A stretch of 64,000 bases of DNA from positions 24,536 to 88,535 of IMG/VR virus record IMGVR_UViG_3300045988_105861. One strand, given 5' to 3'. The notes under the pieces are model-generated. The model had not been told where the DNA came from, searched no databases, and saw only the letters and a program-made list of their open reading frames with translations. Source of the DNA: a virus. Below, in pieces: positions 32,335 through 33,049 of the stretch; positions within the stretch are counted from its first letter, which is position 1; each line of letters begins with the position of its first letter. The translations under genes and the position numbers were made by a program.

Positions 32335-32678
32335 AAGTCATTGTCTTTAAATCCTTCCGGGTAATATACGACATACTTCTTACCGTCTTCTGGTGTCATG
32401 GCAAACTGCATGTAGTTATTACGATTACGATGCTTGCCATCTAATCCTCGCTTCCAATACAGGATACCGTCTATATCCACATAAGACCGTCCGCGTTCGG
32501 CTCTAACTACGTCCGTGTGCAGCAGATACCCGTCGGAAGACACGATCCACACTTTATCCCCTTTGTTTAAATAAGATATTCTTTTTCTTACAACAACCTT
32601 TTTCTTATTATCCAATACAAATTCCTCATCCGTCATATTCTTCATCCTCCTCTTCTTCTGTTTCAAAATCAATTCCAT
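32331..32678 (-). CDS. Hypothetical protein (115 aa). Its start codon lies inside copy 1 of the 370-bp repeat.
   Basis: ORF MELILKQKK... Confidence 0.55.
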   Translation of the reverse strand: MELILKQKKRRMKNMTDEEFVLDNKKKVVVRKRISYLNKGDKVWIVSSDGYLLHTDVVRAERGRSYVDIDGILYWKRGLDGKHRNRNNYMQFAMTPEDGKKYVVYYPEGFKDNDL

Positions 32679-33049
32679 ATCCCATATTCTATTAAATATA
32701 TTTAAAGTTATTCATCCGTTTTAATACATCTCCTCGGAGACCTTCCGGTCTCCTTGGTAGATGTAAATCCCGTTAGGGATAAGTCAGGAATATTTCATCC
32801 TGTTAGTACCCATCGCCAATGTTATTTTGAGGTTTTATATAATGGCAACACTGTTTCGTCAAATACACTACTCCTGTTTAATCACCATCCTTAGAGCAAG
32901 AAACTTGGGTAAACATTCCTTGGTAACTATTTATTCTCAAATAACGTAGCCTTTGTTTCAAGGCTTAGGCTAATAACCCGATCTCTTAAAGAGATGTATT
33001 AAACTTTTATAATAGAATTATATTAGTTTAATACTATTTGGGGTTATAA
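32676..33049. repeat. Dispersed ~370-bp repeat, copy 1 (leader of the gene at 32678).
   Basis: Aligns with 42289-42656. About 95% identical at both ends and ~80% in the middle. Same orientation. Confidence 0.85.

What the first reader, a model, noticed from the sequence alone, without database searches (positions are those of the whole stretch)
32676..33049. Two copies of a ~370-bp structured leader element with GNRA hairpins and a compensatory G-C to G-U change
Regions 32676-33049 and 42289-42656 are copies of the same element: same orientation, 9.6 kb apart, ~95% identical at both ends and ~80% in the middle. Each fills an intergenic gap in the minus-strand operon. Each ends exactly at the start codon of the downstream gene (ATATGGGATATG, at 32678 and 42291). 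Each contains several hairpins capped by GNRA-like loops. On the minus-strand RNA these include GGAGACC-GGAA-GGUCUCC in copy 1 versus GGAGACC-GAAA-GGUCUCU in copy 2, plus AGCCUU-GAAACA-AAGGCU and AUCUCU-UUC-AGAGAU. The copy-2 variant stays paired only as a G-U wobble on the minus transcript. On the plus strand it would be an A-C mismatch, which points to RNA-level selection in the minus orientation. The two ends of the unit can also pair (ATTCTATTA ... TAATAGAAT). I do not recognise this as any known riboswitch, intron or phage RNA family. It could be a cis-regulatory leader, a structured ncRNA, or a duplicated origin or packaging element.
Basis: seen in the sequence. Interest (0 to 1): 0.7.

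Follow-up and report, generated by a model that had tools for sequence, protein, structure and literature searches.

The report
Two protein-less IscB guide-RNA elements
The two ~365-base repeats are copies of a small mobile element that carries only the guide RNA (HEARO/omega-RNA) of the Cas9-ancestor nuclease IscB; each copy sits immediately in front of the start codon of a phage gene, and this is a known kind of element that here lacks its nuclease gene.

Summary
The two copies lie at window 32679-33047 and 42292-42655, both on the minus strand. Identity is 97.6% in the 5' part, 74.8% in the middle and 94.4% in the 3' part.

The element does belong to a known family. Both copies match Rfam HEARO (RF02033) over the whole model, above the gathering score. 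HEARO is the omega-RNA that guides the transposon nuclease IscB.

They are insertions, not a segmental duplication. The 93%-identical phage csAssE-Sib has uninterrupted empty sites at both places.

Related gut-phage contigs carry the same RNA core followed by a 406-aa IscB. The window type has no ORF. In its place is a 39-nt G+C-rich hairpin followed by a short distal end.

This ORF-less type occurs in about 73 IMG/VR contigs, at eight or more sites, always directly 5' of ATG. That fits an IscB/TnpA target-adjacent motif of ATG followed mostly by purines.

Covariation supports the RNA fold. The middle region diverges largely through compensatory pair changes.

Most likely function (inferred): a non-autonomous IS200/IS605-type mini-element. 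Its RNA takes its guide from the upstream flank and uses an IscB supplied in trans to cut element-free alleles.

It is a new member of a known kind, of moderate interest.

The parts
32679..33047 (-). Copy 1 of the ORF-less omega-RNA mini-element (369 nt; ATAACCCC...GGGAT)
   Evidence: Boundaries come from the alignment with copy 2 and from the empty site in phage csAssE-Sib. No ORF of 50 aa or more lies inside it.
42292..42655 (-). Copy 2 of the same element (364 nt)
   Evidence: The empty site in csAssE-Sib reads GACAGAT|ATGAGAAAAC.
32802..33047 (-). HEARO / IscB omega-RNA scaffold, copy 1
   Evidence: Rfam RF02033, 89.3 bits (gathering score 83), model positions 1-211 of 211.
42415..42655 (-). 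HEARO / IscB omega-RNA scaffold, copy 2
   Evidence: Rfam RF02033, 110.4 bits, model positions 1-211 of 211.
33048..33063 (-). Inferred guide of copy 1: the last ~16 nt of the upstream flank (..AUUAUGAUCGGUGUU)
   Evidence: Similarity between the copies stops exactly here. In IscB systems the guide lies just outside the transposon end, 5' of the scaffold (PMC10055086). The ~16-nt length is assumed from my own knowledge of IscB systems and was not measured here.
42656..42671 (-). Inferred guide of copy 2 (..GAAAUAAUUGAUAGGU)
   Evidence: Same reasoning as for copy 1.
32673..32678 (-). Target-adjacent motif side of copy 1, ATGGAA; the ATG is the start codon of the 115-aa ORF
   Evidence: In all lineage-A copies whose 3' end was recovered, in lineages B and C, and in most IscB-linked relatives examined, the element is followed by ATG. 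The known GstIscB TAM is TTCAT, which reads ATGAA in this orientation (PMC10055086).
42286..42291 (-). Target-adjacent motif side of copy 2, ATGAGA; the ATG is the start codon of the 58-aa ORF
32973..33047 (-). 5' domain of copy 1. It comprises closing stem P1 (33041-33047 with 32973-32979), stem GUAUUAAAC/GUUUAAUAC (33026-33034 with 32996-33004) and hairpin AUCUCU-UUA-AGAGAU (32981-32995).
   Evidence: Rfam alignment, MFE fold and pair counts for helices 1, 2 and 4. Covariation across families is visible.
32948..32965 (-). Hairpin AGCCUU-GAAACA-AAGGCU (copy 2: 42556-42573)
   Evidence: Helix 6: 100% paired, and 3 of 6 pairs have changes on both sides.
32841..32922 (-). Variable middle of copy 1: stems P5 (32897-32922) and P6 (32841-32889). 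Copy 2 equivalents are 42505-42530 and 42452-42497.
   Evidence: Only 74.8% identical between the copies, yet 96-99% paired. Helix 9 has 5 of 8 pairs with changes on both sides.
32767..32802 (-). 3' hairpins H1 (CAGGA..UCCUG, 32785-32802) and H2 (AUCCC-UAAC-GGGAU, 32767-32780). Copy 2: 42398-42415 and 42380-42393.
   Evidence: H1 is shared with the IscB-linked relatives. This H2 sequence is specific to the ORF-less lineages; IscB-linked elements have AUGUUGAAUAAACAU instead.
32726..32764 (-). H3, copy 1: a 39-nt G+C-rich hairpin that occupies the place of the IscB ORF
   Evidence: -23.5 kcal/mol, z -6.9. It is present with a different sequence but conserved pairing in all three ORF-less lineages and is absent from IscB-linked elements.
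42339..42377 (-).
   Evidence: -21.0 kcal/mol, z -5.4. Variants among the 80 copies are listed.
32679..32725 (-). AU-rich distal end of copy 1 (copy 2: 42292-42338). It is homologous to the 23-40 nt that follow the IscB stop codon in full-length relatives (shared blocks AACGGAT and TTTAATAGAA).
   Evidence: It contains TAATAGAAT (32686-32694), the 3' partner of the possible long-range pairing.

Best explanation
Each repeat is a non-autonomous, protein-less insertion element of the ISC / IS200-IS605 type (PATE-like). Its whole cargo is an omega-RNA (HEARO RNA), the guide RNA of the RNA-guided nuclease IscB.

Shown:
1. The 5' ~245 nt is a bona fide HEARO scaffold kept by compensatory evolution.
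2. The element is a precise insertion that is absent from close relatives.
3. Relatives with the same scaffold carry a 406-aa IscB where the window type has only a 39-nt hairpin.
4. Insertion is always directly 5' of ATG, co-oriented with the downstream gene.

Inferred:
1. The element is transcribed by read-through from the upstream phage gene, so the last ~16 nt of that gene become the guide.
2. The RNA is loaded onto an IscB made elsewhere: by a full-length element in the same phage genome, in a co-infecting phage, or in the host.
3. The complex cuts the element-free allele (guide match followed by ATGRR). The occupied allele is spared because the guide match is followed by ATAACC.
4. Recombinational repair then copies the element in. 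This is retention and homing, as described for TnpB/IscB.
5. Movement to new ATG sites needs a Y1 transposase (TnpA) in trans.
6. The insertion is tolerated because the element supplies an early stop codon for the upstream ORF. The downstream ATG is left intact (or regenerated, given the AT/TAT junction ambiguity).
For: Identity of the RNA:
- Rfam HEARO hits cover the full model above the gathering score for both copies. No other family matches, even at E<=1.
- Curated structure on 14 ORF-less sequences: 93.9% of cells paired against 33-45% for slid partners; 27 pairs with changes on both sides against 2-7 for slid partners; 0/500 shuffles reach the observed value on four of five measures. RNAalifold finds 23 of 74 such pairs.
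- ORF-less copies score as well as IscB-linked ones: 89-111 bits against 94-109 bits.

Mobility:
- Empty sites exist in csAssE-Sib for both window sites.
- A 100% identical empty allele for a third site is in L022. A fourth site is empty in the window itself (43869-43953). Empty alleles also exist for lineage C.

Link to IscB:
- Most of the ~110 true relatives among the 120 IMG/VR hits have the core followed after ~46 nt by a 406-411 aa ORF. That ORF carries Pfam RRXRR (1e-61) plus HNH and matches OgeuIscB at 3e-45.
- The distal end of the mini-element is homologous to the sequence after the IscB stop codon.

Distribution and target motif:
- 78 stretches in about 73 contigs, at 8 or more distinct downstream flanks, all beginning with ATG.
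- This agrees with the published IscB TAM (TTCAT = ATGAA) and with the published placement of the omega-RNA at the transposon right end, guide outside it (PMC10055086).

Availability of IscB in trans:
- At least 17 mini-bearing contigs also hold an IscB-type element.
- Standalone and PATE-borne omega-RNAs that act in trans are already described (PMC10055086, PMC9581776).
Against: - No IscB or IsrB gene is present in the 64-kb window. No TnpA is present either. The rest of this phage genome was not available.
- In 1.5 Mb of related phage DNA only one TnpA-like fragment was found (L066), so the mobilising enzyme is unidentified.
- Expression, 5'/3' ends, IscB binding and cleavage are all untested.
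- The function of the lineage-specific hairpin H3 is unknown. It does not appear in IscB-linked elements.
- The invariant ATG may partly reflect selection for harmless positions rather than enzyme specificity. One site (D) lies at internal Met codons, which argues for specificity.
- Junctions carry a 2-3 nt AT/TAT ambiguity, so a very short target duplication cannot be formally excluded.
Confidence: 0.75

Rival explanations
1. Inert relics. The copies are leftovers of IscB elements that lost their nuclease gene. They persist only because they are harmless and are carried along by phage recombination. The RNA no longer does anything.
For: - No IscB or TnpA is present in the window.
- The same insertion at the same site is shared by many related contigs, which is compatible with vertical inheritance plus recombination.
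- Some copies show truncated ends or deleted left flanks (L039; L254, L264 and others).
Against: - Three ORF-less lineages only 73-80% identical to each other keep every helix through compensatory changes.
- Their Rfam scores equal those of IscB-linked copies.
- The 100-nt region that differs by 25% between the two window copies stays 96-99% paired.
- They occupy 8 or more sites with precise junctions, so they have transposed as ORF-less units.
Confidence: 0.13
2. Domesticated phage tool. The phage keeps guide-only elements because they direct an IscB (host-encoded or phage-encoded) against competing, element-free relatives at replication genes. This would be marker exclusion or superinfection competition. 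Alternatively the RNA serves another phage function, such as a decoy for host IscB or RNA processing and insulation between genes.
For: - The guides derive from phage replication-module genes, and the empty alleles are exactly the genomes of close competitors such as csAssE-Sib.
- The ORF-less lineage has its own conserved module, H2/H3.
- Phage homing endonucleases are known to act this way (PMC13565253).
Against: - Nothing distinguishes benefit to the phage from benefit to the element.
- The same outcome follows from the purely selfish model.
- Filled and empty alleles share the guide-region polymorphisms, so there is no sign of an arms race.
- No experiment is available.
Confidence: 0.08
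3. A cis-acting leader, riboswitch or attenuator controlling the downstream genes, or a duplicated origin or packaging signal.
For: - The element lies directly upstream of start codons and is highly structured.
- A weak terminator-like match overlaps the AGCCUU hairpin.
Against: - The same genes lack the element in csAssE-Sib and other relatives.
- The element precedes at least eight unrelated genes.
- It is homologous to a trans-acting guide RNA.
- No other Rfam family matches.
- Promoter-like and terminator-like counts do not exceed shuffles.
Confidence: 0.03

Closest known systems
HEARO RNA (Rfam RF02033), the omega-RNA of IscB in OMEGA systems (Weinberg et al. 2009 and Altae-Tran et al. 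2021, from my own knowledge; PMC10055086; PMC9581776)
   Same: Both copies match the full-length covariance model above the gathering score. They have the closing 5' stem, nested hairpins and a nexus-like core. Conservation drops sharply at the 5' boundary, where the variable guide begins. Closely related copies are followed by IscB.
   Different: No IscB ORF follows. The 5' domain has an extra hairpin that is an insertion relative to the Rfam model. About 125 nt (H1, H2, H3 and the AU-rich end) lie beyond the model.
PATE-like, protein-less IS200/IS605 elements that encode omega-RNAs, and standalone trans-acting omega-RNAs (PMC10055086 discussion; PMC9581776 citing Altae-Tran 2021)
   Same: The architecture is transposon end + omega-RNA + other end with no ORF. 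Both depend on a nuclease and a transposase encoded elsewhere, and the guide is taken from the flank.
   Different: The described cases are bacterial chromosomal elements. Here the elements form a persistent lineage in large gut phages, carry a lineage-specific 39-nt hairpin in place of the ORF, and sit exactly at ATG start codons.
ISC transposons / IS605-family IscB elements (PMC4810608; ISGst5 in PMC10055086)
   Same: Insertion is precise, next to a short specific motif and without an obvious target duplication. The omega-RNA lies at the right end on the strand opposite the transposon top strand. The TAM, read on the RNA strand, begins with ATG (Gst: ATGAA).
   Different: No TnpA was seen nearby. 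The subterminal hairpins recognised by TnpA could not be identified with confidence. The host replicon is a phage genome.
Free-standing and intron-borne homing endonuclease genes of phages (PMC13565253)
   Same: The predicted outcome is the same: cleavage of the element-free allele of a co-infecting relative, followed by copying-in of the element. The position between conserved phage genes is also the same.
   Different: Recognition would be by an RNA guide rather than by a protein, and the element itself encodes no endonuclease.

Membership tests
HEARO RNA (RF02033) | Covariance-model score at or above the curated gathering score over the full model | tested here: met
   110.4 and 89.3 bits against a gathering score of 83, model positions 1-211 of 211. 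Confirmed with permissive filters.
HEARO RNA (RF02033) | Conserved secondary structure supported by covariation | tested here: met
   93.9% of cells paired; 27 of 98 pairs with changes on both sides; slid controls give 2-7; 0/500 shuffles reach the observed value on four of five measures. Supported also.
HEARO RNA (RF02033) | An adjacent ORF for an HNH/RuvC (IscB) protein, which gives the family its name | tested here: not met
   The ORFs downstream are of 115 aa (no Pfam match) then 339 aa (PD-(D/E)XK), and of 58 aa then 439 aa (neither with a Pfam match). There is no IscB anywhere in the window. Relatives do have it. This is a usual association of the RNA, not a requirement for membership of the RNA family.
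Functional omega-RNA of an OMEGA (IscB) system | A variable guide immediately 5' of a conserved scaffold, at the transposon boundary | tested here: met
   Similarity between copies and among 80 relatives begins at ATAACCCC. The upstream sequence differs from site to site.
Functional omega-RNA of an OMEGA (IscB) system | A conserved target-adjacent motif next to the guide match in the unoccupied target | tested here: met
   Every empty allele reads guide-match|ATG... All 8 or more occupied sites are followed by ATG, with the fourth base mostly a purine. Whether the nuclease requires this motif was not testable.
Functional omega-RNA of an OMEGA (IscB) system | Binds IscB and directs DNA cleavage | not testable with these tools
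   This needs biochemistry or an interference assay.
Non-autonomous IS200/IS605 (ISC, PATE-like) element | Precise insertion without target-site duplication | tested here: inconclusive
   Filled and empty alleles differ by exactly the element at five sites. However, 2-3 nt (AT/TAT) are shared by junction and element end. L088 (GAG|ATAACC) argues against a true duplication.
Non-autonomous IS200/IS605 (ISC, PATE-like) element | No protein-coding capacity | tested here: met
   No ORF of 50 aa or more on either strand lies inside either copy. One 81-aa plus-strand ORF (42646-42891) overlaps the 5' edge of copy 2 by 10 nt.
Non-autonomous IS200/IS605 (ISC, PATE-like) element | Subterminal hairpins at both ends recognised by a Y1 transposase | tested here: inconclusive
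   Hairpins with related stems exist near both ends (AUCUCU/AGAGAU, and ACAUCU../..AGAUGU of H3). They lie 47-52 nt from the ends, and the IS608-type base-pairing rule between cleavage site and guide tetranucleotide (recalled from memory) could not be fitted by hand.
Non-autonomous IS200/IS605 (ISC, PATE-like) element | A cognate TnpA available in trans | tested here: inconclusive
   None in the window. There is one TnpA-like C-terminal fragment in a related phage contig (L066:2485-2583). Host genomes were not examined.
Riboswitch / cis-regulatory leader | Constant association with a particular downstream gene family | tested here: not met
   At least eight different downstream genes. Orthologous genes lack the element in relatives.
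Group I / group II intron | A match to intron covariance models, and interruption of a continuous ORF | tested here: not met
   No Rfam match other than HEARO at E<=1. Both window insertions lie at gene boundaries.

The most novel reading that the evidence does not exclude
The ORF-less elements may be a long-lived lineage of 'guide-only' hyperparasites in large gut phages. They have diversified into at least three sub-lineages and keep a working omega-RNA plus a private 3' hairpin module. They would spread between co-infecting phages by borrowing the IscB of full-length elements. In effect this would be RNA-guided homing, or marker exclusion, aimed at element-free competitors at replication genes. 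It would be a natural viral example of the separation of guide and nuclease that preceded CRISPR arrays.
Probability: 0.3. Interest if true: 0.65.

Novelty: new member of a known kind. Interest (0 to 1): 0.35.

Why it matters
The finding turns an 'unknown structured RNA' into an annotated feature: two orphan IscB guide RNAs in a phage genome.

For phage annotation, it explains two odd intergenic gaps and why each ends exactly at a start codon.

For the OMEGA/IscB field, it provides a ready natural data set for several tests. The set comprises about 80 ORF-less copies at eight or more sites, matched empty alleles, and co-resident IscB genes. The tests are:
- whether omega-RNAs work in trans;
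- what the target-adjacent motif of this IscB clade is (predicted ATGRR);
- whether RNA-guided homing operates between phages.

The compact 406-aa phage IscB with its cognate RNA may also interest tool developers.

None of this changes current concepts. ORF-less omega-RNA elements and trans-acting omega-RNAs have already been described.

Tried and rejected
1. Scan of genome contigs with the 16-mer CATTGGCGATGGGTAC, meant to find hosts. About 280 chance matches are expected in 596 Gb, and only 2 of the 120 loci were real (L196, L224).

2. Long-range pairing of the two ends. RNAalifold and my pair count on alignment A4 gave 95% pairing with three covarying pairs. The 3' tails of lineages B and C are doubtfully aligned, however. 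Duplex energies are not better than shuffles (z -1.2 and -0.9 for the window copies, about 0 for most relatives). I left this as inconclusive.

3. Reading H3 as the TnpA-binding left-end hairpin. IscB-linked relatives have only 17-103 nt after the stop codon, usually without such a hairpin. The non-Watson-Crick pairs in H3 are G-U on the RNA strand (16, against 2 A-C, per distinct sequence), which would be A-C on the transposon top strand. Not supported, not excluded.

4. Fitting the IS608-style base-pairing rule between cleavage site and guide tetranucleotide by hand, from memory. No fit was found.

5. Homology between the two large downstream proteins (339 aa and 439 aa). Both contain a D-x-K-S-G motif, but BLASTP gives E = 1. 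I treat this as coincidence.

6. Literature search for the csAssE-Sib phage and for phage-borne IscB homing. No paper dealing with these elements in phages was found in the held library.

7. Sigma-70 promoter and intrinsic-terminator scans around copy 1. Counts were not above shuffles, and the likely host uses different promoters.
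Full report
**1. The observation.**
Reading both regions on the minus strand and aligning them confirms two co-oriented copies. 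Similarity begins abruptly at TATAACCCC (33049 / 42656) and ends at ATATGGGATATG (32676 / 42289). The flanks are unrelated. A global alignment gives 90% identity overall: 97.6% for element nt 1-125, 74.8% for nt 126-225 and 94.4% for nt 226-369. Each copy ends at the start codon of a minus-strand ORF (32331-32678, 115 aa; 42115-42291, 58 aa). The quoted hairpins are all present. The window holds only these two copies.

**2. What the RNA is.**
A gathering-threshold Rfam scan of the whole window returns exactly two hits, both to HEARO (RF02033) and both covering model positions 1-211. One is at 42415-42655(-) with 110.4 bits and the other at 32802-33047(-) with 89.3 bits; the gathering score is 83. 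A permissive search of the region finds nothing else. HEARO is the RNA now called the omega-RNA of IscB. [quoted passage not shown] So the element does belong to a known family. The Rfam model covers about 245 nt of it and leaves about 125 nt at the 3' end unexplained.

**3. The copies are insertions, not a duplication.**
The surrounding 18 kb is 93% identical to phage csAssE-Sib (OR575929.1). In that phage the NinG-like gene runs straight into the 58-aa gene. The region after the flotillin gene runs straight into the 119-aa homologue of the window's 115-aa ORF. The alignments show:
- ..GATCAGTGTT|ATGGAATTG.. in csAssE-Sib against ..GATCGGTGTT[ATAACCCC...GGGAT]ATGGAATTG.. in the window;
- ..GACAGAT|ATGAGAAAAC.. 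against ..GATAGGT[ATAACCCC...GGGAT]ATGAGAAAAA...

The element proper is therefore 33047->32679 (369 nt) and 42655->42292 (364 nt). There is an inherent AT/TAT ambiguity at the junctions. The insertion gives the upstream reading frame an early stop (..YNPK*). The ATG of the downstream gene is left intact (or regenerated, given that junction ambiguity). This explains why the element 'ends exactly at the start codon'.

**4. Relatives.**
A 16-mer from the core hits at least 120 IMG/VR stretches, almost all in 75-170 kb gut-phage contigs. BLAST confirms about 110 of them as true relatives.

In most of these the core is followed after about 46 nt by a 406-411 aa ORF. That ORF has Pfam RRXRR (1e-61) plus HNH and matches solved IscB structures (OgeuIscB, 3e-45).

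The window type has no ORF, and the window has no IscB anywhere. csAssE-Sib also has none.

After the core, both types share hairpin H1 (CAGG..CCUG). They then differ:
- IscB-linked elements continue with AUGUUGAAUAAACAU and the IscB start codon.
- ORF-less elements continue with AUCCC-N4-7-GGGAU (H2), a 34-39-nt G+C-rich hairpin (H3) and an AU-rich end.

That end shares the blocks AACGGAT and TTTAATAGAA with the 23-40 nt that follow the IscB stop codon in full-length elements. The window element therefore consists of the RNA end plus the distal end of an IscB element, with H3 in place of the 1.2-kb ORF.

Three ORF-less lineages exist:
- A, the window type;
- B, represented by L120, L044, L077 and GenBank MT838317;
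- C, upstream of a DNA polymerase III beta-clamp gene.

They are only 73-80% identical to each other, yet all have H2 and a stable H3 with a different sequence (-19.6 to -23.5 kcal/mol, z -4 to -7.7).

**5. Distribution and target site.**
A lineage-A-specific 23-mer finds 78 stretches in about 73 contigs. Sorting them by flanks gives at least eight distinct downstream flanks, and every one begins with ATG: ATGGAA, ATGAGA/ATGAAA, ATGAAG, ATGATA, ATGGAT, ATGGCA, ATGGAC/ATGGAT, ATGTTA. Lineages B (ATGGAT) and C (ATGGTA) follow the same rule.

Synthetic left+right junctions recover the following:
- a 100% identical empty allele for site C (L022);
- empty alleles for lineage C (L071, L074, L038, L011);
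- an empty allele of site D inside the window itself (43869-43953). This lies at a run of internal Met codons in a 102-aa ORF.

Site D shows that ATG is a target preference and not only the result of selection for gene starts.

Read on the transposon top strand, the motif is YYCAT. The experimentally defined TAM shared by GstTnpA and GstIscB is TTCAT (PMC10055086). On the RNA strand, both window sites (ATGGAA, ATGAGA) fit the OgeuIscB TAM NWRRNA (quoted in the abstract of PMC12660989). Most IscB-linked relatives examined also end directly before the ATG of the next gene.

**6. RNA structure.**
RNAalifold on 14 ORF-less sequences finds 23 of 74 pairs with changes on both sides. I then wrote a structure from the Rfam alignment plus H1-H3 and a possible long-range helix, and counted it on the same alignment:

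| Measure | Observed | Controls |
|---|---|---|
| Cells paired | 93.9% | 33-45% with slid partners |
| Pairs with changes on both sides | 27 | 2-7 with slid partners |
| Shuffles reaching the observed value | 0/500 on four of five measures | - |

The poorly conserved middle is where this is clearest. Between the two window copies, stem CAAGGAA/UUUCUUG becomes CUACGGA/UCUGUAG, which is three double compensatory changes. Across the alignment that helix stays 96% paired. The drop to 75% identity is therefore mostly stem-preserving change. The stems also appear to be exchanged as modules between copies.

ORF-less copies score as well against Rfam as IscB-linked ones: 89-111 bits against 94-109 bits. 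This argues against decay.

It is consistent with the RNA strand. In H3, non-Watson-Crick pairs are G-U 16 times and A-C twice per distinct sequence, but these stem from only about three independent events.

GNRA loops are frequent in lineage A but not conserved.

The end-to-end pairing (9 bp, plus an exact 13-nt inverted repeat) is real as sequence. It is not better than shuffles in energy and is not consistently kept in the other lineages. I leave it open.

**7. How it most likely works.**
Shown:
- the family assignment;
- mobility;
- the ORF-less architecture;
- the ATG-adjacent target;
- conservation of the fold.

Inferred from the published mechanism of IS200/IS605 elements with TnpB/IscB (PMC10055086):
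- Read-through transcription from the upstream phage gene gives an RNA whose 5' ~16 nt (33063-33048; 42671-42656) are the guide.
- An IscB supplied in trans binds it.
- The complex cuts the unoccupied allele (guide match + ATGRR). The occupied allele is protected because ATAACC follows the guide match.
- Repair from an occupied genome restores or spreads the element.

A source of IscB is plausible. At least 17 of the ~73 contigs with the mini-element also carry an IscB-type element. This is a lower bound, because the first scan was cut at 120 rows and many contigs are partial.

Transposition to new ATG sites would need a Y1 transposase. None is in the window. Only one TnpA-like fragment (RLPSLWTRSFYVETIGHISESVIKKYIDDQKKH*) was seen in 1.5 Mb of related phage DNA. 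That step is therefore the weakest.

What H3 does is unknown. I could test none of the candidates: a 3'-end stabiliser, a processing boundary between the guide RNA and the downstream mRNA, or a transposase-binding hairpin.

**8. Comparison and novelty.**
Protein-less PATE-like elements that encode omega-RNAs, and standalone omega-RNAs that work with IscB in trans, are already in the literature (PMC10055086; PMC9581776 citing Altae-Tran et al. 2021). IscB homologues are present in deposited phage genomes, where they are usually annotated as HNH endonucleases.

The window feature is thus a new member of a known kind. The local particulars are:
- the phage setting;
- the strict position at ATG codons;
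- the persistence and diversification of an ORF-less lineage with its own 3' hairpin.

These give moderate interest. They also give a convenient natural system for testing trans-acting guides and RNA-guided homing between phages.

Noticed in passing
window 43869-43953 (-), inside ORF 43835-44143: This is an unoccupied copy of another insertion site of the same mini-element (filled in L088 and L073). It lies at a run of four ATG codons (..AATAATGAG ATG ATG ATG ATG GAT GTT..). The filled alleles lack three of the ATG repeats.
   Followed up: partly
L066:2485-2583 (-), at the contig end: This translates to RLPSLWTRSFYVETIGHISESVIKKYIDDQKKH*, which looks like the C-terminus of an IS200/IS605 Y1 transposase (TnpA). 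It lies about 1.4 kb upstream of an IscB element in a related phage contig. It was the only such hit in 1.5 Mb of related phage DNA.
   Followed up: partly
L254, L264, L269, L275, L089, L256 (site A relatives): These copies have the same right flank (ATGGAATTGA) but shortened or different left flanks, for example ..ACCAATCATT| and ..GAATCATTAT|. These look like 10-12 nt deletions on the guide side, which would change the guide sequence of the RNA.
   Followed up: no
window 32841-32922 and 42452-42530; loci: The variable middle of the element is mosaic. The P5 and P6 stem variants occur in different combinations in different copies, which suggests recombination between copies with stems exchanged as units.
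   Followed up: no
L196 (NZ_JBHMEP010000019.1, labelled Vibrio olivae): A 20-kb contig of a Vibrio assembly carries a HEARO core 86% identical to the window core, followed by a 406-aa IscB like those of the gut phages. This is possibly contamination or mis-binning.
   Followed up: no
window 31315-32334 (-) and 40799-42118 (-): Each window copy lies one small ORF upstream of a large protein with a PD-(D/E)XK-like D-x-K-S-G motif. The 339-aa protein matches Pfam PDDEXK_1; the 439-aa protein has no Pfam hit. The two proteins are not detectably homologous (E = 1), so this is probably coincidence.
   Followed up: partly
window 33184-33205 (+/-): A strong G+C-rich hairpin, GGCCCAAG-TGTAAC-CTTGGGCC, sits just after the flotillin-like gene (33213-34913). 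It is terminator-like and is conserved in csAssE-Sib.
   Followed up: no
window 33052-33123 (-): A short ORF (MDFGQDLEPEELTKHYDRCYNPK*) is truncated by copy 1. In csAssE-Sib the same frame continues for 35 codons but is not annotated. The annotated csAssE-Sib gene for the 115-aa ORF starts four codons upstream of the insertion point.
   Followed up: partly
L039 (site B relative): This copy has a shortened distal end (..GATGTATTAAAATGGAATGGTAT|ATGAAAAAAAA). The last ~30 nt of the element can therefore be lost while the copy stays in place.
   Followed up: no
window 2332-8973 (+) and 16884-23306 (+): Two very large ORFs (2213 and 2140 aa) lie on the opposite strand from the replication module. 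I did not examine them.
   Followed up: no
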